Shown in pieces: positions 37,531 through 51,400 of a DNA stretch of 64,000 nt. Position numbers and translations under genes: made by a program. The stretch is from Elusimicrobiota bacterium. Lineage in GTDB: Bacteria; Elusimicrobiota; Elusimicrobia; FEN-1173. The stretch covers positions 25,161 through 89,160 of the forward strand of contig JADKCG010000002.1 of assembly GCA_016714745.1 (NCBI GenBank), written 5' to 3'. Numbering within the stretch: position 1 is the stretch's first letter; each line of letters starts with the position of its first letter. Below the pieces are notes generated by a model. It had not been told where the DNA came from. It searched no databases and saw nothing but the letters and a program-made list of their open reading frames with translations.

Positions 37531-38445
37531 TTAGGTATATCCGATCGCGATAAGGGCATCGGAAACCCCTCGCACAGAGAGTTGTTTCTTATAATAATTC
37601 TCAACATCTGCGTATTCAGATGCTATGGTAAATGCAGGGTTCTCAATTTGGGGTTTGCCAACCCGAAGCCAGTGAAAGAGATTTTCCAATCCATACCGTT
37701 GCTCAAAATAGACACATCCCCTCTTGTATCCCGCTTTTTTTAAACATTCTTTAAGCGTGATTGCCGAAAAATAATGAAGATGGGCCCTAATCCAATAGAA
37801 ATCGTTGTAAGCCTTACACGTTCTCAGCAGTAATTCCTCCACATTTGGGACCTCGCATATTAAAACCCCCCCCTTTTTAAGAAGGGCTTTGCTTCGCAAA
37901 AGGAAATCAACTGGATTGCGTGTATGTTCCAATACATGGAACATGGTGATAACGTCAAACGGACCCCCTTTCGGGATCTCGGATAAAATGTCCGCGTCAA
38001 ACAATGGAGCGGAGATATTTCTTTTTCCAATCATTCGCCGCTCTTGGCTTATTTCAACCCCAACCACTTTGTGGTATCCACGGCGAAACATCCCATCGAT
38101 AAAAAAACCATAGCCCGCCCCAACGTCAAGAATTTTGCTCTGCTTTGAACGGCAAAACTTCGAAACAAAAGCTATGTGACGATCGGTATCGAATTGGTTG
38201 TTCTTTTTAAGTGCGCTAAAATAAATTTTCTTTCCGACAGACTTGTCCTGCTGATTCAAATCGTAATACGCCTTTTCCTTTTCAATGTTTGGCTGTGGGT
38301 ATAGTTGGACATGCCCGCATGTGAAACAACAATATACTTTGCTTTTTTGAGAACCATCCCTTAATCGGGAGGAGACAAGCCGATGCCTGTTATGTCCACA
38401 CAAAGAACATTTAAAATTATTCGTAATCATGAGGTGGATCCCCAA
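37531..38445 (-). CDS. class I SAM-dependent methyltransferase with an N-terminal zinc ribbon; first gene of the island
   Basis: CSLCGH...CFTCGHVQLYPQP, then ILDVGAGYGFF (motif I). Same architecture as 5864..6886. Confidence 0.8.
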   Translation of the reverse strand: MGIHLMITNNFKCSLCGHNRHRLVSSRLRDGSQKSKVYCCFTCGHVQLYPQPNIEKEKAYYDLNQQDKSVGKKIYFSALKKNNQFDTDRHIAFVSKFCRSKQSKILDVGAGYGFFIDGMFRRGYHKVVGVEISQERRMIGKRNISAPLFDADILSEIPKGGPFDVITMFHVLEHTRNPVDFLLRSKALLKKGGVLICEVPNVEELLLRTCKAYNDFYWIRAHLHYFSAITLKECLKKAGYKRGCVYFEQRYGLENLFHWLRVGKPQIENPAFTIASEYADVENYYKKQLSVRGVSDALIAIGYT

Positions 38446-38524
38446 AATAAGGCAACAATCGTCCGCCGCTCTTCGGCGAACTCATATGAGACACAGCGGA
38501 CGAAAAAGGTCTGAAGGGATTCCA

Positions 38525-38905
38525 TCATAGGACCTTTTTCGCGAGCGCAAGGATGTTTGATACGGCGTCGAGAGCGCGAGAGAAAGCTTTCGTTTTCTTG
38601 ACACTTTTTTCTGCTTTCTCCGCCAACCAGGCCAGTTCGGATTGGGCGGTTTTTGAGCGATTCAAAAGGGCGGTCGATTCTTTGTTCCAATCGGCGGTGA
38701 GTGTTCGGCGAATCCGGACCATTTCAATTTTAAGCGATTGACCTTTTTCGGTTAATTCTTTGGCCAGGGCCATGTCCTTGGTTTCTTTGGCCCGGCGGGC
38801 CAGGTAAAGAACAGAGATCCGCGATTCGGACAGGGACTCGAACAGCGCGGTGGCGGGGAGCCGCTGGGATGTCGTTTTTTCTCGAACGACACGATTTTTC
38901 CTCAT
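38525..38905 (-). CDS. hypothetical 126 aa protein, Lys/Glu/Ala-rich and probably coiled-coil
   Basis: ORF coupled by an ATGA overlap to the upstream lipoprotein gene. No recognisable motif. Confidence 0.5.
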   Translation of the reverse strand: MRKNRVVREKTTSQRLPATALFESLSESRISVLYLARRAKETKDMALAKELTEKGQSLKIEMVRIRRTLTADWNKESTALLNRSKTAQSELAWLAEKAEKSVKKTKAFSRALDAVSNILALAKKVL

Positions 38906-39843
38906 CGGGACTTCTCCAACTCATTTGTGAGGCGAGCCACTTGGGTAGCGAAGGCGGCGAGATCGGTGAGGGCATTTTGGGGTTTGGCGTTGCGGGCGAG
39001 ACCTTCCGCTAAATCGTGGTGGGCCTTTGGCAGATTATTATAGAACAGGGTCAGGGCGTTGAGGGTTTCCATGGCGTCGGCGTATTCGGCGTTTAGGTTA
39101 AAGATCGAGCGGGCGAGGGTGTTGCGGCCGGGGGTGCGTTTGTCGTCCCAGCGGGCGTGGATCGCGTCCATTCGGTTGGCGTAGGCGATCTTGAGGTCGG
39201 TTCGGATGAGGTCGAGCAGGGTCAGACAATGGGTCGCGTAAGATTCTACCCAAGGCTGGTTTTCCTGAACAGCGGATCGCAGATTTTTGGCGCGACGGGA
39301 TCGTTTGACATTGCGCAAGCTTTCAGAAGAAAACGCGGCGGCTCCCGCGGGAAAGAGGTTGGGCCTGCCCTTCACCTGAACAATCGTTGCCCCGGCGTCG
39401 CGAAGGCTTTGGGTGATGGCGGCGGCCAGGGCGTCGCGGTCTTCTGACTCCTTCGGATGTCCCTCTGCCACTTGAACGAGGAGCGTGGTATAGCCCCCGA
39501 AAGCGGCGTTCAGTTCTTCCAATGCACGGAGGGTGAGCCGGGCTTCCCAGTGGGGGACCGTGACCGGCGTTGACCAGGCATATCCTTTTACCTCTTTTAG
39601 CATGTGGTCGCTTAAGGGGGCGTTTTTGGTTTCGGCCAGGGCATCGACGTCCGCTTCTCGCGTCCAATCCACGTCCCGGGCCATTTCGGTTTCGATCCCC
39701 TTTTGGGCGGTGGCGACAGACGTTTCAAAAGATTTAAATGCGCCGGGGCGAAGAGAGGCGCAGGCGGTGAGACTAAGAAGGAACAATTGGGGAATAAATG
39801 CACTGGAGGAGAGAGCCCCATTCCGCGTCCGAGGGATTTTCAT
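38902..39843 (-). CDS. hypothetical lipoprotein, predicted mostly helical
   Basis: MKIPRTRNGALSSSAFIPQLFLLSLTAC: signal peptide with an L-T-A-C lipobox. The ATG at 39843 forms an ATGA overlap with the upstream stop. Confidence 0.6.
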   Translation of the reverse strand: MKIPRTRNGALSSSAFIPQLFLLSLTACASLRPGAFKSFETSVATAQKGIETEMARDVDWTREADVDALAETKNAPLSDHMLKEVKGYAWSTPVTVPHWEARLTLRALEELNAAFGGYTTLLVQVAEGHPKESEDRDALAAAITQSLRDAGATIVQVKGRPNLFPAGAAAFSSESLRNVKRSRRAKNLRSAVQENQPWVESYATHCLTLLDLIRTDLKIAYANRMDAIHARWDDKRTPGRNTLARSIFNLNAEYADAMETLNALTLFYNNLPKAHHDLAEGLARNAKPQNALTDLAAFATQVARLTNELEKSR

Positions 39844-41171
39844 GGAACGGCCCAATAGCCGCCTGTTCGACGGCTCCCTTTGTGAACGATCGCTCTCCGC
39901 ATTTTAAGTTGAGCCAACCAACGCTCGATATTCTTGGGTGATGTGGTAAGGGCTCTCGCCAATTGTGGGGTCCGAATACCGGGTTTCTGGACGATCAACG
40001 AGAGAAGGCCGTTTATTCCCTCATTTATTCCCTCATTTATTCCCTCACTGCCGCCGGGGTGGGGAGGGCGTTGCAATTTGATTCGGAAGAAGGGGCCTGT
40101 TTTGATTTTGGGCGCAGGAAGATCGACCGCGCGCATGTGGTCGCGCATGCGGCGCAGACCACTGCCCAACCGCTCCACTTTTTGCATTCGGGCAAAAATG
40201 TCGGCAATTTTTTCGTTTCGCCGGATGGAAACGCCCATCAGCGTTTCCGCTGTCATGCCATCGGGAACCCGCCCGGGATTGACGATTTCCACTCGATCAT
40301 CGTAAATTTCCACCATCAAGCTGGTCCCTCGGAAACCGTAGTCCCGATGAACAATCGCGTTGGCCACAGCCTCGCGCAACACCTCGACGGGAATTTCCAT
40401 GAGATCGAAACGGCGGGTGCCGTGGATTTCACTGCGCGTGTTCAGGTGTTTTTGAAGGAAAAAGAGAGCTTCATTAAATTGCGTGAGCAAATCGTCTTTG
40501 ACGTCTTTTCGATCAAAGACGTCGCGCCGTTCTTTGCCCTTAAACACAACAAAGGTGGCCTGGCATTGGGGAAACGCTCGTTGGGGGTCGCGACCAAAAA
40601 GGAGGATCCCCGCGTTGCGGATCCGATCTCCGTCCGCCAAGTTGAGGCTGGCTAAAACAGTGGACGGCGGCGCGCCCAGACGGCGGACACCCGCTTCTTG
40701 GAAAAAAGCGGCGACCTTTTTTGTGGAGATTTGTTTCCAGGTCACTGCCGCGTCAAACCGGTCTTCGAAAGAATCTTTCCCCGCCGCTTGGAAATGGAGA
40801 CCCAGTTCCTTTCGGTTCATTTTCTGAGTCACCGCGTCCATCCGTCGGAAATAGCCTGAAGCGCAACTGTATGGTTTTTCTTCTCCAGGCAAAACATCAA
40901 TGACCACCACATCGCCGATCTGAGTCAACTGGTGAATATCCAGCGGCGGCTCGCATTGGCGGGAGAGAGCCTGAATTTCAGCCTTGAGTCGGTTTGTCAG
41001 TTTTTCCCCCACCACACGGCCATCGTCTTTTACCCCCAACAGAATGCGGCCGCCCTTTGTGTTGGCGAAAGCGACGAGGTCGCGATCGATTTTAGGTGTG
41101 TATTTTTCCTTAAACTCAACGGAAAGGCCTTCGCCTTCCGCGAGAAGAAGTTTCAATTCTTCGGGAGTCAT
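39840..41171 (-). CDS. AlbA_2 (Schlafen-like) plus HATPase_c_4 plus C-terminal wHTH protein (the class often annotated RecG-like putative regulator)
   Basis: EGLSVEFKEKY...DLVAFANTKGGRILLGVKDDGRVVG (AlbA_2 N-terminus), LREAVANAIVHRDY (ATPase-like core) and a C-terminal HTH-like tail. The ATG at 41171 forms an ATGA overlap with the protease stop. Confidence 0.75.
   Translation of the reverse strand: MTPEELKLLLAEGEGLSVEFKEKYTPKIDRDLVAFANTKGGRILLGVKDDGRVVGEKLTNRLKAEIQALSRQCEPPLDIHQLTQIGDVVVIDVLPGEEKPYSCASGYFRRMDAVTQKMNRKELGLHFQAAGKDSFEDRFDAAVTWKQISTKKVAAFFQEAGVRRLGAPPSTVLASLNLADGDRIRNAGILLFGRDPQRAFPQCQATFVVFKGKERRDVFDRKDVKDDLLTQFNEALFFLQKHLNTRSEIHGTRRFDLMEIPVEVLREAVANAIVHRDYGFRGTSLMVEIYDDRVEIVNPGRVPDGMTAETLMGVSIRRNEKIADIFARMQKVERLGSGLRRMRDHMRAVDLPAPKIKTGPFFRIKLQRPPHPGGSEGINEGINEGINGLLSLIVQKPGIRTPQLARALTTSPKNIERWLAQLKMRRAIVHKGSRRTGGYWAVP
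40012..40047. repeat. perfect 12-bp tandem repeat x3 (tttattccctca) inside the AlbA_2 gene
   Basis: Read directly. Encodes (EGIN)x3 in the linker before the C-terminal HTH. Confidence 0.95.
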
Positions 41172-42298
41172 TTGGGAGGAATCCCCACAGAAATCCAAGA
41201 TTGCTTTACGGCTTTGGATTCGGGACTGCGGGAACCGTAAAGAATAGTCGCTTTTTCGACCGTCCCCTGTGCGATCGCGGCGAAATCACTTCGGGGCGAC
41301 AAAGAGAGGAGCGTTTGATACCAAATCTTTCCTGTTTTTTCCCACGATTTCCCGCCAATTTGCATGGCCGCCAGGTAGAAAGCGTGATTGGGAATGCCAG
41401 AGTTGATATGGACGCCGCCGTAATCATCTTCCCCCTCATACTTCTGTTTCATGTGGGCGGGTTGGGGGTCGGTGCCGATGTCGGGATCGTTCACATAGGC
41501 GGTGCCGGGAGCGGAAAAACTTCGGAGCGCTTTTCGCGTGAACGTTTTGATCAAGATATCGGCGCCGACCAGCCAATCGGCTTGTTTGACGGTTTGGTTT
41601 CTTCGCCACTGTTTAACGAGGATTCCCATAACGTCGGCGTAATGTTCGTTTAAGGCGCCGGATTCTCCCTGATACTCTAAATTTGCCGTATGGCTCACAA
41701 CGCCGTGGGTTAACTCGTGGGCGACCACGTCGAGGGATTTGGTAAAACGCACAAATGTGCGCCCGTCCCCGTCGCCGTACGCCATTTGCTCTCCGTCCCA
41801 AAAAGCGTTGGCATAGTGTTGGCCCACGTGCACACTGGAAATGAGGGACATGCCACGGTCATCGAGGGAGTTCCGGTTCAAGACCTCTTTGTAAAAATCG
41901 TAGGTGTCGCCGGAATAATCGTAGGCTTCGTTGACCGCGGGGTCCTTCGAGGGGCCATTCGGCCCCTTTTCACCTTCACTGCGGACCAGTTTTCCGGGGA
42001 GGGCGTGGGTGGGTTTGTGTTGGGCGTCGTAGATCAGGCGGTGTTTCTTGCCTGCCGGGGAAGGGATGGCGGCCATTTGGGGAAGTGTCGATAGGGTGGT
42101 TCGTGTGGCGCGGGCCGCGGCGGAGGCGGCCAGGTTCTCCAGGGCCCATCGACGAGTGATTTTGTCGGGAGACTCGGCCATCCGTTTGAGGATGAACGGG
42201 GGGAGGATGCCTTGACACACACGCTTAACAGCAAATCCCCCCTGGCCCCCCTTTTTCAAAGGGGGATAAAAATAATGAGGGTGAATTATGCGATCCAT
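41168..42298 (-). CDS. M4 (thermolysin-family) zinc metallopeptidase, protealysin-like, with no signal peptide
   Basis: VAHELTHGV (HExxH) ...GALNEHYADV (third zinc ligand Glu) ...GGVHINSGIPNHAF. The N-terminal CQGILPPFILKRM resembles the protealysin propeptide motif. The true start is uncertain and may lie downstream of 42298. Confidence 0.85.
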   Translation of the reverse strand: MDRIIHPHYFYPPLKKGGQGGFAVKRVCQGILPPFILKRMAESPDKITRRWALENLAASAAARATRTTLSTLPQMAAIPSPAGKKHRLIYDAQHKPTHALPGKLVRSEGEKGPNGPSKDPAVNEAYDYSGDTYDFYKEVLNRNSLDDRGMSLISSVHVGQHYANAFWDGEQMAYGDGDGRTFVRFTKSLDVVAHELTHGVVSHTANLEYQGESGALNEHYADVMGILVKQWRRNQTVKQADWLVGADILIKTFTRKALRSFSAPGTAYVNDPDIGTDPQPAHMKQKYEGEDDYGGVHINSGIPNHAFYLAAMQIGGKSWEKTGKIWYQTLLSLSPRSDFAAIAQGTVEKATILYGSRSPESKAVKQSWISVGIPPK

Positions 42299-42750
42299 TG
42301 GGCGATGAAGACCATGGCCTTGCGGGCTTTAATGATCAGGGACTGGAGCTCTTGGATTCGTTTTTGGGCAACGGAGATTCCGTTGCCGCTATTGAGGAGA
42401 TGAACCAACTGCTCTTCAGCACGGTCCAATCGTTTGGTCAACCCTTCTTTGACACGGCGGAGGGCGACCTGCTTAATATCCCGGTTGGCCTCGTAAAAAT
42501 CCTTTCGGCTCCCGACTAAGGAAACGGGCCGAACGGCCCCCCAGGATTCTAAAAGCCGGATGTTGATACTGGCGTTGCCCTTGCTCATGGACAGCCGTTG
42601 ACCAATGTCTTCAAGCGAAAGCGGGGATTCTTGAAGATAGAGCAGACCATAGATTTGCCCCACCGATCGGTTGAAACTAAAACTTTCCGCCAGTTCACCC
42701 GCGAAGCGGGCAAACTCTGAATCCGTCGAGGCAGGCGTTTGTGTGCGCAT
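42286..42750 (-). CDS. GbsR/MarR-type winged-helix transcriptional regulator
   Basis: GQIYGLLYLQESPLSLEDIGQRLSMSKGNASINIRLLESWGAV (wHTH). 154 aa. Confidence 0.75.
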   Translation of the reverse strand: MRTQTPASTDSEFARFAGELAESFSFNRSVGQIYGLLYLQESPLSLEDIGQRLSMSKGNASINIRLLESWGAVRPVSLVGSRKDFYEANRDIKQVALRRVKEGLTKRLDRAEEQLVHLLNSGNGISVAQKRIQELQSLIIKARKAMVFIAQWIA

Positions 42751-42782
42751 ATGTTTTTTAATGTTTAGCTCGTTCTAAACAA

Positions 42783-42811
42783 TATATACACTGTGTTCCC
42801 TCTTCTGTCAA
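42783..42811 (-). promoter_or_regulatory. sigma70-type promoter candidate for the gbsR-like / M4 protease operon
   Basis: The minus strand reads TTGACA, then 17 nt, then TATATA. The -10 element ends about 30 nt upstream of the ATG at 42750. Confidence 0.55.
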
Positions 42812-42924
42812 GGGGGCTGAGGGAGGCGTTGGTTATATCACGCATCACAACCCCTGGGCCAGGTGCCTTCGTGCAGGAGTATCACCTCCTCTCAGTGTTT
42901 CTGAAGAGACTCCACCGATGTTTT

Positions 42925-42964
42925 CGGCGGAAAGGTCGTCCGATCTTTGTCTCTCTTTCCGCCG
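42925..42964. repeat. perfect 10-bp inverted repeat (cggcggaaag / ctttccgccg) with a 20-nt loop
   Basis: Read directly in non-coding DNA. Confidence 0.9.
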
Positions 42965-43168
42965 CACACGTGCAGTGTTTTCCGTTCAAAGTCGAGGTTA
43001 GGCGGGACAATTCCATGTCCCCTGGATGAGTCCCATCGTTGTGTTATGCCAACTCGGCCGGGAACTGAGACTTCTCATGACGTTCCTGTTCGTCGTCTCC
43101 TCGGTTTGCCGTAGGCTTCCTCCAGACGGTCCCTCGCACGACAAAGGGGACCCCAGAAGCTCACGTAA

Positions 43169-43376
43169 CCCGGAACTTTCAGTTGGGCGCGAGGACCGGC
43201 CCCGCGCAGAGCGCGGGGCACTTGGGGCGGCAGAGCCGCTGATGCGAGACGGAAAAGCCAGGTTTTTTACGAAACAAAAAAGTTTGGGCGTAGCGGGGAC
43301 TACGTTCAAACTTTTTTGTGAAGTAAAAAGCCTGGATTTTACGTCGAATCCCGTGATCCAACTGAAAATTCCGGGG
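43169..43376. mobile_element. 208-bp MITE-like element: 18/19-bp terminal inverted repeats flanked by TAA direct repeats, with nested internal hairpins
   Basis: Left end TAA|CCCGGAACTTTCAGTTGG, right end CCAACTGAAAATTCCGGGG|TAA (one mismatch and one indel between arms). Inside are a near-perfect 78-nt palindrome at 43258-43335 and a GC hairpin (ccccgcgc aga gcgcgggg). No ORF. No second copy in this window. Confidence 0.45.
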
Positions 43377-43406
43377 TAAGGATGTAAATTTGGCTTCCGA
43401 CCGCGC

Positions 43407-43509
43407 TAGCCGGGATTCCCCGGTTGGCACAGGGCTCCCGTCGACAGGGTCCGGAACATATTTTTTAGCCCTCCCAGACGGAAATGATTGGTCCTCTGAC
43501 ATTTTCAGG
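43407..43509 (+). repeat. intergenic repeat family A, copy 1 (about 103 bp)
   Basis: tagccgggattccccggttggcacagggctcccgtcgacagggtccggaacatatt... aligns by eye at roughly 90 percent or better with 51282-51385. Confidence 0.9.
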
Positions 43510-43555
43510 CTACGGAAGTTTGTTGGATCATTTTGTAGGTTTTCGAGGGTTTTCG

Positions 43556-43891
43556 CTAGGAGACAACGTCCCCCTTGGCTTGGGCGGAGAGGAAGGCTAT
43601 TAGGGGGCGGGCTTTGGGGGGAACGGTTTGTTCGTCTAGCTGGATCAAGGTTTTTCCCTTGGAGCCTTTCAAACTTAATTGATACACGATTAAATCGCGG
43701 GCGTGGGAGGGAGGGGGTTTCTTTAATTCTCTCACGGCGATCAGGCCCGCCTTGGCTTTCGGCGTGAGGTGCGAAAGGGGCACTTCACAGACTTTTCGCG
43801 TCCCCGCGAATCCTCCCGACTGCATAAAGCAAAGAATTCCCCCTTCGTCCGGACGGGAGCGTTTTGATTTGATCCGAGGCCGTTGGGTCAT
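43556..43891 (-). CDS. small protein resembling the emfourin family of protealysin inhibitors (tentative)
   Basis: 111 aa. ILCFMQSGGFAGTRKVCEVPLSHLTP...ARDLIVYQLSLKGSKGKTLIQLDEQTVPPKARPLIAFL fits my recollection of the emfourin pattern (SGGFAG ... D..Y.L.l ... lP...rPL). Not verified by search. Confidence 0.45.
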   Translation of the reverse strand: MTQRPRIKSKRSRPDEGGILCFMQSGGFAGTRKVCEVPLSHLTPKAKAGLIAVRELKKPPPSHARDLIVYQLSLKGSKGKTLIQLDEQTVPPKARPLIAFLSAQAKGDVVS

Positions 43892-43929: not shown

Positions 43930-45355
43930 TCAATCAATGACGATCCGGTAATCTTCCCAGGGAAGCGTTGGGTCGATGGTGATCGTCAGCGATCGTTTAA
44001 GAATTTTTTCCAGCCGGTCTTGGCGTTCTCTGACGAAATCGCCCACGCCGGGCGGCAGGGTCACTTGGAGTCTCCCTTCCGACCGTCCTTGGGTGATTTC
44101 TAATATTTTTTTGCAATTTTAAATACATGGACTCGCGCGAGAGGACGTTGCCGCTTCCCGCGCATTCAGGGCAAGGCTCGGACAACAGGGAAAGCAACGA
44201 TTCCCGTCGGCGTTCCCGGGTCATTTCCACCAGGCCCAGCCGGGTAATGGGAAGAATTTTGATTTTCGCCCGGTCATTGCGCGTGGCGTGCTCCAGCACC
44301 TCCACCACCTTGATTTGGTTTCGTTTGCGCCTCATGTCGATGAAATCAATGACGATGATCCCCCCGATGTTTCGGATGCGCAATTGTTTGGCCACCTCTT
44401 CGGCGGCTTCCAGGTTCGTGGCGGTGACGGTTTCTTCTTGGGATTTGTGGCCGATGAATTTGCCGGTGTTCACGTCGATGGCACAGAGAGATTCTGCTTC
44501 CTGGATGATGATGTATCCGCCGGACGGAAGATCGATCCTTTGTTGACGAATATGTGCCAGTTCACGGTCAACCCCGAACGCTTGGAAGATCGGCGTTTTG
44601 CCCGTGTAATGCTGGACCCGTTCGGTGTATTCTGGAGCCAACATTTCAACGAACTTTTTTAAGTCTCTATATTCCTCTTTGTCATCAATCAGAAAAATGT
44701 TCGCGTTGTCATTCAACAGGTCTCGGGCAATCTGGAACGTCAATCCCAATTCCCGGTGGATCAGCGTGCCGGTTTGCGCGGTCTCATACTTTTTGAGAAT
44801 CCCTTCCCAGAGTTTGGCCAGATATTTCATTTCGCTTCGCAGTTCGGCCTCGTCCGCCCCCTCCGCCTCGGTGCGGACAATCATTCCGCCCGGCAAATTC
44901 TCCTCTTCGATGATGCGACGAAGCCGATCGCGTTCGGCTGGTTCCTCGATGTGTTTTGAGACGCCCACGTGTTCGCTTTTGGGCATATAGATGAGGTATC
45001 GGCCCGGCAGGGAAATGTCCATGGTGACTTTCATGCCTTTGGTGCTGATCGCCTCTTTCGCCACCTGCACCATCAGGTCTTCCCCCCGTTTCAACATCTT
45101 TTCAATGTGGCGGTCTTTGGATGAACTGACCACGTCGGTCACATACAGGTACGCGTTCTTTTCGAACCCCGTGTTCACGAACGCGCTGGAAATCCCGGGA
45201 AGCACATTTTCGAGTTTCCCTTTATAAATGTTACCCACCAGTTTCGCCATGCCGAGCGCGGGACGTTCGATCATGAATTCAGCCAGGTGGCCATCTTCCA
45301 ATACAGCGATGCGTGTTTCTTCCGGTAAAACGTTGGCAATAATCTCTCTTTTCAT
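43930..45355 (-). CDS. rng: ribonuclease G/E family (S1 domain plus catalytic core), frameshifted at a T7/A7 run in this assembly
   Basis: MKREIIANVLPEETRIAVLEDG...GNIYKGKLENVLPGISSAFVNTG...CPECAGSG. After the A7 run (plus-strand T-run 44106-44112) the ORF tail looks like noise. One extra A gives KKILEITQGRSEGRLQVTLPPGVGDFVRERQDRLEKILKRSLTITIDPTLPWEDYRIVID, with a stop at 43930. Confidence 0.85.
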
Positions 45356-45442: not shown

Positions 45443-46814
45443 TTACAAAATATACCGACGCAAATGGATTGACAACAATAGGCCCACGGCCATAAATGAA
45501 CCGACGAGCCCGGACCCTCCGTAAGAGAGGAAAGGCAGGGGAATCCCTGTCACGGGCATCAGTCCCATGGCCATCCCAATATTGACGAGACCCGAAAACG
45601 AAAAATAGGCGCCCAATGCGGTCGCGAGGTATCGCCCGAAATAGTCCCGCGCCGTATACGCGATATCAAATGCCCGCCATGCCACCCAAAAATATACCGC
45701 CAAAAGAAAGAAAGCCCCCAAAAATCCGGTTTCTTCCCCCACAAGCGAAAAAATAAAGTCCGTATGTTTTTCTGGCAAGAACCCCAACTGGCTTTGGCTC
45801 CCCGAAAGGATTCCTTTCCCCACAAACCGGCCGGACCCTACAGCGATTTTCGATTGCAAAATGTTATAGCCGGACCCCAACGGGTCCACGGCCGGATCAA
45901 CGAACGCGATCAGCCTTTTGCGTTGGTAGGGTTTAATCGCCCGGTCGACCACGAAAGAACCCGCCACGCCCATGACAATAACCATCAACGCCACCGCTAA
46001 GGAAACCCTGCTCACAGGAACCCGCCATTTCCTCAGAAACCACCAGAGCGCGCAGACCGCCCCCCCTATGGCGGTCCAAAACAAAGAAGGGGCCGGTTTC
46101 CTGAAACGCCCGCGACAGTCCCATCATCACAGGACGGTCGATCCAGCGATCACTGACGATGGAAAAATAGGTTCCGGTCAACGGAATTCCGAGCGCGAGC
46201 ACGGTTCCGGAAAGGATCGTGATCAAAAACCCCAATGGCATCCCCGCCGCAAAGAGGACCGCCAACGTCATGGGCCCCATCACCAACGCACTTGAAAGGT
46301 CCGGCTGAAGAAGCACCAAACCAAAATGCGCGCCGGCCAGCAATAAAGGAGGAACGGACCCGCGCCAATAGCGAAGGTCTCTCGCCCGCACGTTCGCATA
46401 CGCCGCTAAGGCCACGGCCAACCCCAACCGAGTGATCTCGACCGGCTGAAAATAGATATTCCCCAAATCTATCCAGGAGCGGCTTCCTCTCAGACGCGTG
46501 CCGACCAACAGCGTCAAAATCAATAAAAGTGTGCTGATCCCATAGACCCCCTTGGCATAGGTCTGAAACACTTGATACGGCAGAAGCGCCAGAAAAATCA
46601 TGGCCACCCCCCTCACCGCAAACCCCAGCCCTTGTCGAGCCATAAAAGAACCGGCATGGCCGCTCTGGAGCGTGGCGGAAAAAATAAAGAGCATGCCCAT
46701 CACCGCCAACGCCATCACCGCAACCAACAAGCTCCAATCCAGGCGCGCCAAAAATTTGTGGGATCCCGAAGATTCCCCCACGCGGAAAAATCGCGGAACA
46801 ATGTCGGGAGTCAT
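45443..46814 (-). CDS. rodA: rod shape-determining SEDS protein RodA (FtsW/RodA family), frameshifted in this assembly
   Basis: ORF 45933..46814 carries the N-terminal helices. ORF 45443..46084 carries the C-terminus (GSGYNILQSKIAVGSGRFVGKG...EKHTDFIF...PVTGIPLPFLSYGGS). The frames join near the A-runs at 46078-46085. Confidence 0.85.
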
Positions 46815-46877
46815 AGGCCCATTCTCACGGGAACGACAGAGCCCCGCCCCTCCCCGTGGGAACAGCTTGGAAAATTC

Positions 46878-46925
46878 TGTTCCGGACCCTGGGGACGGTA
46901 GCCCTGGGCCAACGGGGGAATCCGG
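46878..46925 (-). repeat. intergenic repeat family A, partial diverged copy in inverted orientation
   Basis: The reverse complement, ccggattcccccgttggcccagggctaccgtccccagggtccggaaca, matches the core of copies 1 and 2. It lies in the mrdA-rodA spacer. Confidence 0.75.
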
Positions 46926-51281: not shown

Positions 51282-51385
51282 TAGCCGGGATTCCCCGGTT
51301 GGCACAGGGCTACCGTCGACAGGGTCCGGAACATATTATTTTAGCCCTCCCAGGCGGAAATCATTGGTCATCTGAAATTTTCAGG
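51282..51385 (+). repeat. intergenic repeat family A, copy 2 (about 104 bp), immediately upstream of the mreB Shine-Dalgarno
   Basis: tagccgggattccccggttggcacagggctaccgtcgacagggtccggaacatattatttt... aligned by eye to 43407-43509. Confidence 0.9.
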
Positions 51386-51400
51386 TTAGCTTTCCGTAGA

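What the first reader, a model, noticed from the sequence alone, without database searches (positions are those of the whole stretch)
38525..42811. GbsR-regulated operon coupling an M4 protealysin-like protease to an AlbA_2/ATPase-like protein, a lipoprotein and a coiled-coil protein through three ATGA overlaps
A TTGACA-17-TATATA promoter candidate precedes a GbsR/MarR-type regulator gene. Its stop overlaps the annotated start of a signal-less M4 metalloprotease.

The protease stop, the AlbA_2 start, the lipoprotein start and the 126 aa protein start are each linked by ATGA overlaps (41168-41171, 39840-39843, 38902-38905). I verified these directly in the sequence. Such tight translational coupling usually marks proteins made in fixed ratios for one function.

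A cytoplasmic protease, a Schlafen-like/AlbA_2 nucleic-acid-binding protein and two unknown envelope or coiled-coil proteins do not form any system I know. The position between a variable glycan island and core genes, and the nearby repeats, is typical of accessory or defence-type cargo.
Basis: partly seen in the sequence, partly recalled or inferred. Interest (0 to 1): 0.65.

Follow-up and report, generated by a model that had tools for sequence, protein, structure and literature searches.

The report
Mosaic operon, not four-protein system
The four tightly packed genes are real, but comparison with related genomes shows three separable parts: a known protease with its inhibitor gene nearby, a conserved but uncharacterised lipoprotein/small-protein pair with its own regulator, and a dispensable defence-type passenger gene.

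Summary
The genes, the three ATGA overlaps and the promoter are all present in this Elusimicrobia genome. The promoter, plus a GTTTAG-N6-CTAAAC palindrome, is conserved in 12 of 12 related loci.

The tight packing is not special. Thirteen of 62 same-strand junctions in the window have 4-nt overlaps.

About 20 related loci show three modules:
- **Protease and inhibitor.** The M4 enzyme is a protealysin-like protease (PDB 2VQX, E 1e-90).
- **Regulator, lipoprotein and small protein.** The GbsR-type regulator goes with the lipoprotein/small-protein pair. The pair also occurs without any protease, including in distant homologues (328 clusters, no Pfam family, no structural match).
- **AlbA_2 gene.** This is a stand-alone "Schlatpase-HTH" gene from a huge, horizontally spread family. 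It sits exactly between two ATGA junctions. It is intact in three lineages, decayed in two, absent in seven contigs and elsewhere in the operon in two.

In relatives the same operon collects other defence-island genes (DUF1016, Fic, MNT-HepT), sometimes with the small gene duplicated up to six times.

Verdict: a mosaic operon and insertion hotspot, not a new four-protein system. Interest is modest.

The parts
43556..43891 (-). Emfourin (M4in) family gene, the protein inhibitor of protealysin-like proteases.
   Evidence: Pfam PF20242 Emfourin, 35.6 bits against a cut-off of 27. Orthologues occupy the same position in L004, L008, L013, L028 and L029.
42783..42811 (-). Sigma-70-type promoter: TTGACA (42806-42811), 17-nt spacer, TATATA (42783-42788), with TG two bases upstream (extended -10 reading TGTATATAT).
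   Evidence: Read. Aligned and conserved in 12 of 12 related loci.
42763..42780 (-). Probable operator: perfect inverted repeat GTTTAG-AACGAG-CTAAAC immediately downstream of the -10 box.
   Evidence: Conserved in 12 of 12 loci upstream of the regulator gene. Binding by the regulator is inferred, not tested.
42286..42750 (-). GbsR-type (MarR superfamily) winged-helix regulator, 154 aa.
   Evidence: PDB 1KU9 (MJ223), E 1.4e-16. Pfam MarR_2 24.7 bits, below its cut-off. NCBIfam CudC 46.6 bits against a cut-off of 218. It heads the lipoprotein/small module in every locus that reaches far enough upstream.
41168..42220 (-). Protealysin-like M4 metalloprotease zymogen. Probable start is GTG 42220; the longest ORF reaches ATG 42298.
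   Evidence: Peptidase_M4 and M4_C. PDB 2VQX protealysin, E 1.3e-90, aligned from residue 28 through the ILPPFILKRM propeptide motif. HELTH and NEHYAD zinc motifs read. N-terminal comparison.
39840..41171 (-). Stand-alone SLFN_AlbA_2 + GHKL-like HATPase_c_4 + C-terminal wHTH protein ('Schlatpase-HTH'), 443 aa. A variable passenger cassette bounded by ATGA on both sides.
   Evidence: Pfam. 781 homologues with E<=1e-30 across many phyla at about 50% identity. Present, decayed or absent in relatives. Cassette boundaries. Literature: bioRxiv 10.64898/2026.05.29.728809.
38902..39843 (-). All-alpha lipoprotein of an uncharacterised family, 313 aa (lipobox LTAC, Cys28).
   Evidence: 28 close homologues. 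328 representative clusters by profile search. No Pfam, NCBIfam or PADLOC family. AlphaFold model pLDDT 74, no Foldseek hit with E<0.1.
38525..38905 (-). Small three-helix protein, 126 aa. It is the constant downstream partner of the lipoprotein and is multi-copy in some relatives.
   Evidence: hmmsearch finds it after the lipoprotein in nearly all loci. hhalign to the 118-aa partners of distant lipoprotein homologues: probability 98.2%, E 2.9e-14. Model pLDDT 81.
38427..38525 (-). 32-aa ORF: remnant of the N-terminus of a DUF4062/Fic-like_C cassette gene. It is joined by TGATG to the small gene and by ATGA to the next gene.
   Evidence: 59% identity over 29 aa to L001:14668-15264, E 2e-9. DNA alignment.
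37531..38430 (-). SAM-dependent methyltransferase, first gene of the lower-GC glycan cluster. It continues the same head-to-tail gene chain.
   Evidence: Pfam Methyltransf_23. GC 0.42 against 0.52-0.59 for the operon genes. Junction read.

Best explanation
The region is a composite operon driven by one conserved promoter and made of three evolutionarily separable modules.

**Module 1: protease and inhibitor.** This is a protealysin-like M4 zymogen. Its cognate inhibitor gene, emfourin, lies just upstream. Together they form the known protease/inhibitor pair, here split by the regulator gene.

**Module 2: regulator, lipoprotein and small protein.** A GbsR-type repressor probably binds the GTTTAG-N6-CTAAAC palindrome that overlaps the transcription start. 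It would release transcription when an unknown ligand is present. Its constant cargo is an exported all-alpha lipoprotein plus a three-helix protein of about 120 aa. Their function is unknown and probably envelope-related. This module heads the glycan-synthesis cluster.

**Module 3: passenger gene.** A stand-alone AlbA_2/GHKL/HTH ('Schlatpase-HTH') gene has been inserted exactly at the M4/lipoprotein ATGA junction. It is promoterless, rides on the operon's transcription and translational coupling, and most likely acts on its own. By analogy with SLFN-pAgo it would be an ATP-switched nucleic-acid-targeting defence or regulatory protein.

**Overlaps.** The ATGA overlaps reflect the compact gene packing of this genome and the way insertions preserve coupling. 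They do not indicate a fixed-stoichiometry complex.

**Shown:** the anatomy, conservation of the promoter and palindrome, module separability, and the presence/absence/decay pattern.
**Inferred:** repressor-operator binding, read-through transcription, export of the lipoprotein, and the activity of the AlbA_2 protein.
For: **Module separability**
- L028 has RNase G, emfourin, M4, MarR, lipoprotein, small, DAO in that order.
- L023 and L021/22 have GbsR directly before the lipoprotein, with no room for M4.
- Distant lipoprotein homologues in L011, L026 and L027 keep only the small partner.

**AlbA_2 is variable**
- Intact in the window, L001-3 and L029.
- Internal deletion in L008-10.
- 45-aa stub fused to the lipoprotein in L007.
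- Absent in L004/5, L013, L015-18 and L025.
- Upstream of M4 in L006.
- The insertion runs exactly from ATGA to ATGA compared with L004.
- The family is huge and cross-phylum, reaching archaea at about 46-53% identity, and a 53%-identical homologue stands alone in an unrelated context.

**The same operon collects other cassettes.** DUF1016, Fic and MNT-HepT genes occur in it in L001, L004, L008, L021 and L029. The window itself carries a Fic-cassette remnant.

**Protease identity.** 2VQX, E 1.3e-90. Emfourin by Pfam. The protealysin operon is pln plus the emfourin gene (PMC9505478).

**Promoter and operator.** Conserved in 12 of 12 loci.

**Overlaps are common.** 13 of 62 junctions.
Against: - Where intact, the AlbA_2 gene is under purifying selection: 153 synonymous against 78 non-synonymous codon differences between the window and L001. 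It is slightly better conserved (82-85% aa) than M4 (75-79%) or the lipoprotein (70-72%).
- An AlbA_2/HATPase_c_4 gene or remnant recurs in this operon at three different positions (M4/lipoprotein, GbsR/M4, GbsR/lipoprotein). This could mean more than a hotspot.
- M4 is immediately upstream of the lipoprotein in 13 of the 19 groups of near-identical contigs that show what lies upstream, with a 4-nt overlap in L004 and L006. A clade-specific functional link between protease and lipoprotein is therefore not excluded.
- No expression data exist. All relatives are uncultured metagenome bins.
Confidence: 0.7

Rival explanations
1. First reader's reading. The M4 protease, the AlbA_2/ATPase protein, the lipoprotein and the small coiled-coil protein form one dedicated four-component system, possibly anti-phage, made in fixed ratios through translational coupling.
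For: - The quartet in the same order, with the same overlaps, recurs in L001-3 and L029.
- AlbA_2 is under purifying selection there.
- AlbA_2-type genes recur in this operon at other positions (L006, L021).
- The locus is a defence-gene hotspot in relatives.
Against: - AlbA_2 is decayed in the window's two closest relatives by M4 and lipoprotein identity, L007 and L008, and is absent in seven other contigs.
- The protease is absent from L021-23.
- The lipoprotein/small pair exists alone in distant homologues.
- No PADLOC system model matches. The only hits are domain-level hits of the ATPase region to pAgo-associated models.
- 4-nt overlaps occur at 21% of junctions in the window.
- The protease already has a known partner, emfourin, next door.
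Confidence: 0.07
2. The protease, lipoprotein and small protein form a functional triad, with AlbA_2 only a passenger. The envelope lipoprotein/small pair would be a partner of the signal-less protealysin-like protease: an export or anchoring device, a substrate, or a second control layer besides emfourin.
For: - M4 lies directly upstream of the lipoprotein in 13 groups of near-identical contigs.
- The overlap is ATGA or GTGA in L004/5 and L006, where no cassette intervenes.
- Even in L028 the two modules are neighbours.
- Protealysin is known to cleave an outer-membrane protein, OmpX, and its export route is unknown (PMC9505478; PMC11172720 title).
Against: - GbsR-lipoprotein-small occurs with no M4 or emfourin gene anywhere in the roughly 15-17 kb held for each locus in L021/22 and L023.
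- Distant family members (L011, L026, L027) have no protease.
- The association is confined to one small clade of uncultured Elusimicrobia: 3 species among 185,579 GTDB representatives.
Confidence: 0.2
3. The head of the operon is a dedicated capture platform for promoterless defence cassettes, resembling an integron but without an integrase. The small gene, with the first codons of the next gene, would serve as the repeated recombination unit.
For: - L001 carries six copies of the small gene (63-95% identical at the DNA level). They alternate with MNT-HepT, a DAO fragment plus DUF1016, Fic-like_C plus Fic, a second AlbA_2 gene and a DUF1016 fragment.
- Five of the six copies end in T(A/G)ATGGAATC, which is the start of the DAO gene.
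- In L008 the DUF1016 gene begins MRKNR, like the window's small protein.
- Cassettes sit at every junction of the operon in one relative or another.
Against: - No recombinase is consistently nearby. L007 has a split tyrosine recombinase upstream; the window has only weak remnants.
- No attC-like element was found.
- L021/22 and L029 stack cassettes without duplicating the small gene.
- Ordinary homologous or illegitimate recombination between strains could give the same picture.
- The array is seen in one lineage only.
Confidence: 0.15

Closest known systems
Protealysin operon of Serratia proteamaculans (pln + m4in/emfourin)
   Same: - An M4 protease without a signal peptide, with a short propeptide carrying the PPL-type motif.
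- Best PDB match is the protealysin precursor 2VQX.
- An emfourin-family gene lies in the immediate neighbourhood.
- In relative L028 the two genes are adjacent, 57 nt apart on the same strand.
   Different: - In the window emfourin is upstream of the protease and separated from it by the regulator gene and an 805-bp spacer that carries mobile-element debris.
- The protease is transcribed from the regulator's promoter and is followed by unrelated genes.
- No biochemical data exist for this enzyme.
GbsR/OpuAR/CydE family of MarR-type repressors (PMC6207618)
   Same: - Size and winged-helix fold.
- Best structural relative is MJ223, the family's template.
- The gene heads the operon it presumably controls, with a palindromic site at the promoter.
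   Different: - No osmoprotectant transporter or betaine-synthesis genes are nearby.
- The NCBIfam CudC score is far below its cut-off (46.6 against 218 bits).
- The aromatic-cage residues were not examined and the ligand is unknown.
- The review itself notes that members outside the osmostress group use other effectors.
Stand-alone 'Schlatpase' proteins: SLFN_AlbA_2 + GHKL ATPase PF13749, usually with a C-terminal HTH (bioRxiv 10.64898/2026.05.29.728809). Often mis-named 'ATP-dependent DNA helicase RecG'.
   Same: - Identical domain order and length.
[quoted passage not shown]
- PADLOC's pAgo and SIR2-associated models hit the ATPase region.
   Different: - There is no Argonaute, NACHT or restriction-modification partner here.
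- The gene is embedded in a protease/lipoprotein operon.
- Activity of the stand-alone form is untested. The tRNA-nuclease mechanism was shown only for the pAgo fusion.
Defence islands and hitchhiker genes embedded in type I restriction-modification operons (for example DUF1016 between hsd genes, PMC9881135)
   Same: The same gene families (DUF1016/YhcG, Fic, MNT-HepT, AlbA_2) are inserted co-directionally between the genes of a host operon.
   Different: The host operon is not a defence system. It is a regulator/protease/lipoprotein operon at the edge of a glycan cluster. In one lineage a host gene (the small gene) is duplicated with each insertion.

Membership tests
Protealysin-like proteases (M4 subfamily) | Peptidase_M4 catalytic domain and M4_C helical domain | tested here: met
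   PF01447 117.7 bits and PF02868 180.3 bits, both far above their cut-offs.
Protealysin-like proteases (M4 subfamily) | Zinc-binding HExxH plus the downstream NExxSD-type glutamate | tested here: met
   HELTH and NEHYAD are read in the translation. They align with the corresponding motifs of 2VQX.
Protealysin-like proteases (M4 subfamily) | Short N-terminal propeptide with the PPL motif in place of the FTP/PepSY prodomain; no signal peptide | tested here: met
   ILPPFILKRM aligns with VIPPYMLRRI of the protealysin precursor from chain residue 6. Pfam PLN_propep scores only 16.9 bits, below its cut-off. Absence of a signal peptide was judged by eye; no predictor was run.
Protealysin-like proteases (M4 subfamily) | Partner emfourin gene in the locus | tested here: met
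   PF20242 at 43556-43891, 35.6 bits against a cut-off of 27. It is adjacent to M4 in L028. Inhibition was not tested.
GbsR family of MarR-type regulators | Winged-helix N-terminal domain and dimerisation domain related to MJ223 | tested here: met
   1KU9, E 1.4e-16 over residues 17-99.
GbsR family of MarR-type regulators | Aromatic-cage inducer site and linkage to osmoprotectant uptake or synthesis genes (the osmostress subgroup) | tested here: not met
   No such genes are in the window or in any related locus. CudC equivalog scores 46.6 bits against a cut-off of 218. The cage residues themselves were not examined.
Schlatpase (SLFN_AlbA_2 + GHKL ATPase) proteins | PF04326 followed by PF13749 in one polypeptide, commonly with a C-terminal HTH | tested here: met
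   PF04326 58.7 bits (residues 14-119) and PF13749 76.4 bits (residues 282-359). HTH families are recorded for close homologues and for the second copy in L001.
Schlatpase (SLFN_AlbA_2 + GHKL ATPase) proteins | ATP-dependent oligomerisation and SLFN nuclease activity | not testable with these tools
   Shown only for the SLFN-pAgo fusion RzAgo. Here it is an inference.
Known anti-phage defence systems (PADLOC-DB 2.0) | Match of the gene set to a system model | tested here: not met
   There are no hits for the protease, lipoprotein, small protein or emfourin. The AlbA_2 protein gives only partial hits to pAgo and SIR2-associated models over its ATPase region.
Bacterial lipoproteins | Signal peptide ending in a lipobox with an invariant Cys | tested here: met
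   The sequence LSLTAC|ASL has Cys28, which is invariant in 20 of 20 sequences, including homologues of 20-29% identity. No dedicated predictor was run.
Integron-like cassette arrays | Site-specific integrase plus attI/attC recombination sites flanking promoterless cassettes | tested here: not met
   No integrase gene is in the window, only weak remnants (E 0.005-0.007). The repeated unit in L001 is a protein-coding gene, not an attC-type hairpin.

The most novel reading that the evidence does not exclude
The junctions of this GbsR-controlled operon act as a reusable landing and expression platform for promoterless defence-type genes (Schlatpase-HTH, DUF1016 nuclease, Fic, MNT-HepT). Cassettes enter exactly at start/stop overlaps or a few codons into the next gene, inherit that gene's first codons, and in some lineages duplicate the ~380-bp small gene each time, giving six copies in L001. 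This would be an integrase-independent counterpart of an integron for defence genes. It could also explain why the same gene families are found embedded in type I restriction-modification operons.
Probability: 0.15. Interest if true: 0.65.

Novelty: new variant of a known kind. Interest (0 to 1): 0.3.

Why it matters
- **What is removed.** An apparent new multi-protein system is taken off the list. Translational-coupling overlaps alone are shown to be a weak signal in compact genomes.
- **Lead 1: a gene pair worth characterising.** A widespread, unnamed lipoprotein/small-protein pair (328 sequence clusters) in one clade sits next to a protealysin-like protease, whose cellular role and export route are still open questions.
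- **Lead 2: a worked example of hitchhiking.** Defence-island passenger genes are seen inserting into, decaying in and being lost from a housekeeping-type operon at precise start/stop junctions. This bears on how such genes spread and get expressed.

Tried and rejected
- **Family and system libraries.** NCBIfam, PADLOC and Pfam give nothing for the lipoprotein or the small protein, even when 20 family members are scanned individually.
- **Solved structures.** A PDB profile search returned only designed coiled coils. Foldseek against PDB gave no hit with E<0.1 for the lipoprotein model and none with E<1 for the small-protein model.
- **Small protein against its distant counterpart.** BLASTP against the 118-aa neighbour in L011 found nothing. 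The relationship appeared only with profiles.
- **DAO-remnant hypothesis, rejected.** I first took the 32-aa ORF after the small gene for a remnant of the DAO gene. It matches the DUF4062/Fic-like_C cassette gene instead.
- **Locus searches.** The search for related loci with a broad alignment failed for lack of conserved stretches. The narrower alignment found only 3 GTDB species and 10 metagenome contigs.
- **The 805-bp spacer.** It has no match in plasmids.
- **Integrase upstream.** The window has only weak remnants.
- **Taxonomy of distant homologues.** Looking up neighbouring proteins gave no names.
- **Complex prediction.** No fused lipoprotein/small complex was attempted.
- **Generic promoter scan.** It does not list the promoter because its -10 rule requires a final T.

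Full report
**1. What is in the window**

All genes of interest are on the minus strand of a long co-directional stretch. The lipoprotein is 100% identical to a protein of an Elusimicrobia metagenome bin. Reading 5' to 3':

| Feature | Coordinates | Evidence |
|---|---|---|
| RNase G | 43997-45355 | |
| Emfourin-family gene | 43556-43891 | PF20242, 35.6 bits, cut-off 27 |
| Spacer, 805 bp | 42751-43555 | |
| Promoter: TTGACA, 17 nt, TATATA | 42783-42811 | |
| GbsR-type regulator | 42286-42750 | |
| M4 protease | 41168-42298 (longest ORF) | |
| AlbA_2 + HATPase_c_4 protein | 39840-41171 | |
| Lipoprotein, 313 aa | 38902-39843 | |
| Small protein, 126 aa | 38525-38905 | |
| 32-aa ORF | 38427-38525 | |
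| Methyltransferase | 37531-38430 | |

GC content drops from 0.52-0.59 in the operon genes to 0.42 in the methyltransferase.

**2. Check of the observation**

- They are not unusual here. Of 62 consecutive minus-strand junctions in the window, 13 have a 4-nt overlap and 2 a 1-nt overlap. A second run of three overlaps lies at 17367-13831.
- The overlap between the regulator's stop and the protease's start depends on taking the longest ORF. Conservation begins at residue 26-30, just before ILPPFILKRM. In L001 and L028 the start codon lies 3-5 residues before that motif, and the stretch upstream is neither length- nor sequence-conserved. The ATG at 42298 is conserved because it lies inside the regulator's last codons. 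GTG 42220 is the likelier start.
- The gene chain does not stop at 38525. It continues through TGATG and another ATGA into the methyltransferase.

**3. The promoter is real in the comparative sense**

- Upstream regions of the regulator gene from 12 loci were aligned. Their lipoproteins are 40-100% identical to the window's.
- All 12 keep TTGAC at the -35 position, an extended -10 (TGTATATAT or a shortened form), and the perfect palindrome GTTTAG-N6-CTAAAC directly downstream.
- The regulator's best structural relative is MJ223 (1KU9, E 1.4e-16). MJ223 is the template used to model GbsR-family repressors (PMC6207618).
- An autoregulated, ligand-released repressor is therefore the likeliest arrangement. 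Binding is inferred.
- The osmostress subgroup is excluded. No osmoprotectant genes are nearby, and the CudC model scores 46.6 bits against a cut-off of 218.

**4. The protease has a known identity and a known partner**

- Its best PDB match is the protealysin precursor 2VQX (E 1.3e-90), aligned from the propeptide motif to the C-terminus.
- The zinc motifs HELTH and NEHYAD are present.
- Protealysin-like proteases are encoded together with their inhibitor emfourin (PMC9505478, citing Chukhontseva et al. 2021).
- The window has an emfourin gene one gene upstream. In L028 emfourin and M4 are adjacent, 57 nt apart on the same strand.

**5. The lipoprotein and the small protein are the real conserved pair**

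- The lipoprotein has 28 close homologues, all from Elusimicrobia-type bins or unnamed metagenome contigs.
- A profile search of 1.84 billion representatives finds 328 clusters (217 at E<=1e-10). Nearly all of the 150 listed are about 280-350 aa, a few being fragments, and none of the ten clusters looked up carries an informative name.
- Cys28 of the lipobox is invariant down to 20% identity.
- The AlphaFold model (pLDDT 74) is an all-alpha bundle with no Foldseek match better than E 0.14.
- The small protein is modelled as three helices (pLDDT 81) and also has no informative match.
- An HMM of the small protein finds a copy directly after the lipoprotein in nearly every locus that extends far enough, including distant L011 and L026.
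- hhalign of the Elusimicrobia small proteins against the 118-120-aa neighbours of distant lipoproteins gives probability 98.2%, E 2.9e-14.
- Those distant loci have no protease, no GbsR-type gene and no AlbA_2 gene.

**6. Comparative anatomy (tblastn map; gene tables)**

"Lipo" is the lipoprotein and "Small" is the small protein. Near-identical contigs are grouped on one row.

| Locus | Gene order |
|---|---|
| Window, L029 | Emfourin, GbsR, M4, AlbA_2, Lipo, ... |
| L001-3 | GbsR, M4, AlbA_2, Lipo, then a cassette array |
| L008-10 | as the window, but AlbA_2 retains only residues 1-54 and 247-443 |
| L007 | a 45-aa AlbA_2 stub fused to the lipoprotein |
| L004/5, L013 | Emfourin, GbsR, M4, Lipo, no AlbA_2 (ATGA overlap M4/Lipo in L004) |
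| L015, L016, L017, L018, L025 | M4, then a 120-140-nt gap, then Lipo |
| L006 | GbsR, truncated AlbA_2-type gene, M4, Lipo, Small, DAO |
| L021/22 | GbsR, AlbA_2 remnants, Lipo, no M4 |
| L023 | GbsR, Lipo, no M4 |
| L028 | Emfourin, M4, MarR, Lipo, Small, DAO |

Three conclusions follow:
- The regulator travels with the lipoprotein/small pair.
- The protease travels with emfourin.
- The AlbA_2 gene comes and goes.

**7. The AlbA_2 gene as a passenger**

- Compared with L004, the window's insertion begins right after the M4 ATGA and ends with its own ATGA.
- The protein belongs to a family with 781 hits at E<=1e-30 among the candidates scored. These lie at 46-53% identity in Omnitrophota, Planctomycetota, Chlamydiae, Kiritimatiellia, Brocadiales and even Woesearchaeota.
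- By contrast, the identity of the flanking lipoprotein falls to 20-29% in the more distant homologues sampled.
- A 53%-identical homologue stands alone in an unrelated context.
- The architecture is the "Schlatpase" supradomain plus HTH, described for 60,692 prokaryotic proteins. It is exchanged among pAgo, NACHT and type I restriction-modification loci. [quoted passage not shown] This explains PADLOC's partial pAgo hits.
- Where intact, the gene is under purifying selection. It is a working gene, but a dispensable one.

**8. The operon is an insertion hotspot**

- DUF1016/YhcG nuclease genes sit between the lipoprotein and the small gene in L004, L008 and L029.
- A Fic gene follows the lipoprotein in L029.
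- L021/22 stack DUF1016, AlbA_2 and MNT-HepT genes after the lipoprotein.
- L001 alternates six copies of the small gene with MNT-HepT, a DAO fragment plus DUF1016, Fic-like_C plus Fic, a second AlbA_2 gene and a DUF1016 fragment. Five of the copies end in T(A/G)ATGGAATC, the start of the DAO gene.
- The window's 32-aa ORF after the small gene is the stump of the Fic-associated gene (59% over 29 aa, E 2e-9).
- The same families are known as inserts in type I restriction-modification operons (PMC9881135).
- How the small gene gets duplicated is unexplained.

**9. Mechanism, committed**

1. A GbsR-type dimer represses a sigma-70-type promoter through the palindrome. An unknown ligand relieves repression.
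2. The transcript covers M4, AlbA_2, the lipoprotein and the small protein, and probably runs on into the glycan genes.
3. The protease is made as a zymogen and is held in check by emfourin, which is made from its own gene upstream.
4. The lipoprotein is exported and lipidated. The small protein has no export signal.
5. The AlbA_2 protein acts autonomously.

Steps 1-5 are inferences from anatomy and family knowledge. The module structure is shown. I put 0.7 on this mosaic reading, 0.2 on an additional clade-specific functional tie between protease and lipoprotein/small pair, 0.07 on the four-protein system, and 0.15 on the cassette-platform idea. These readings overlap and do not sum to 1.

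**10. Novelty and score**

- Every recognisable part belongs to a known kind.
- The arrangement is a new variant of the protealysin/emfourin locus, joined to an uncharacterised but widespread gene pair and carrying a passenger gene.
- A specialist would find the split emfourin/protease arrangement and the lipoprotein link mildly interesting, and the small-gene/cassette array curious.
- Neither observation opens a long-standing question directly.
- Interest: 0.3.

Noticed in passing
window 42979-43143 (-): Full-length match to Rfam RF02001 (group II intron D1-D4-3), 51.4 bits against a gathering score of 32. It lies in the 805-bp spacer between emfourin and the regulator. No domain 5/6 match and no reverse-transcriptase ORF were found, so this is probably an intron fragment. 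The same spacer is only 58-212 bp in L004, L008 and L013.
   Followed up: partly
window 43245-43379; L007 774-908: An element of about 135 nt with 46-nt inverted arms (83% complementary). It is 97% identical to a copy in L007, where it splits a tyrosine-recombinase gene. It looks like a MITE.
   Followed up: partly
window 43407-43512, 51282-51388, 46871-46923: A repeat of about 107 nt is present three times in the window (93% and 87% identity to the first copy), apparently in intergenic positions.
   Followed up: no
window 43196-43246; L001 11261-11310, 14429-14479, 16558-16608: An element of about 50 nt containing the hairpin CCGCTCTC..GAGAGCGG. It is intergenic in the window but inserted in frame in three of the six small-gene copies of L001, where it adds RISTSGAPSAALSE(S/G)G to the protein.
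   Followed up: partly
L001 11100-19564 (also L002/L003/L014): Six diverged copies of the small gene alternate with MNT-HepT, a DAO fragment plus DUF1016, Fic-like_C plus Fic, a second AlbA_2 gene and a DUF1016 fragment. Copies 4 and 5 also carry a remnant of the lipoprotein's 3' end upstream. The duplication mechanism is unexplained.
   Followed up: partly
window 40012-40047: Three exact tandem 12-nt units inside the AlbA_2 gene encode GINEGINEGINE, in the linker before the C-terminal winged helix.
   Followed up: no
window 45443-46814 (-): The rodA (FtsW/RodA family) gene appears as two overlapping ORFs (45933-46814 and 45443-46084), whereas relatives have a single 456-478-aa gene. This is a frameshift or an assembly error.
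   Followed up: no
L007 374-1562: A tyrosine recombinase gene, split into SAM-like and catalytic parts by the MITE-like element, lies immediately upstream of the GbsR promoter and replaces emfourin at that position. The window has only weak protein-level remnants (42871-42999, E 0.005).
   Followed up: partly
window 1-38430: The glycan-type cluster downstream of the operon has clearly lower GC (0.41-0.50) than the operon and the core genes (0.52-0.60). It also differs in gene content from the DAO/SIS/heptose-type clusters that follow the small gene in relatives. This suggests replacement of the cluster.
   Followed up: no
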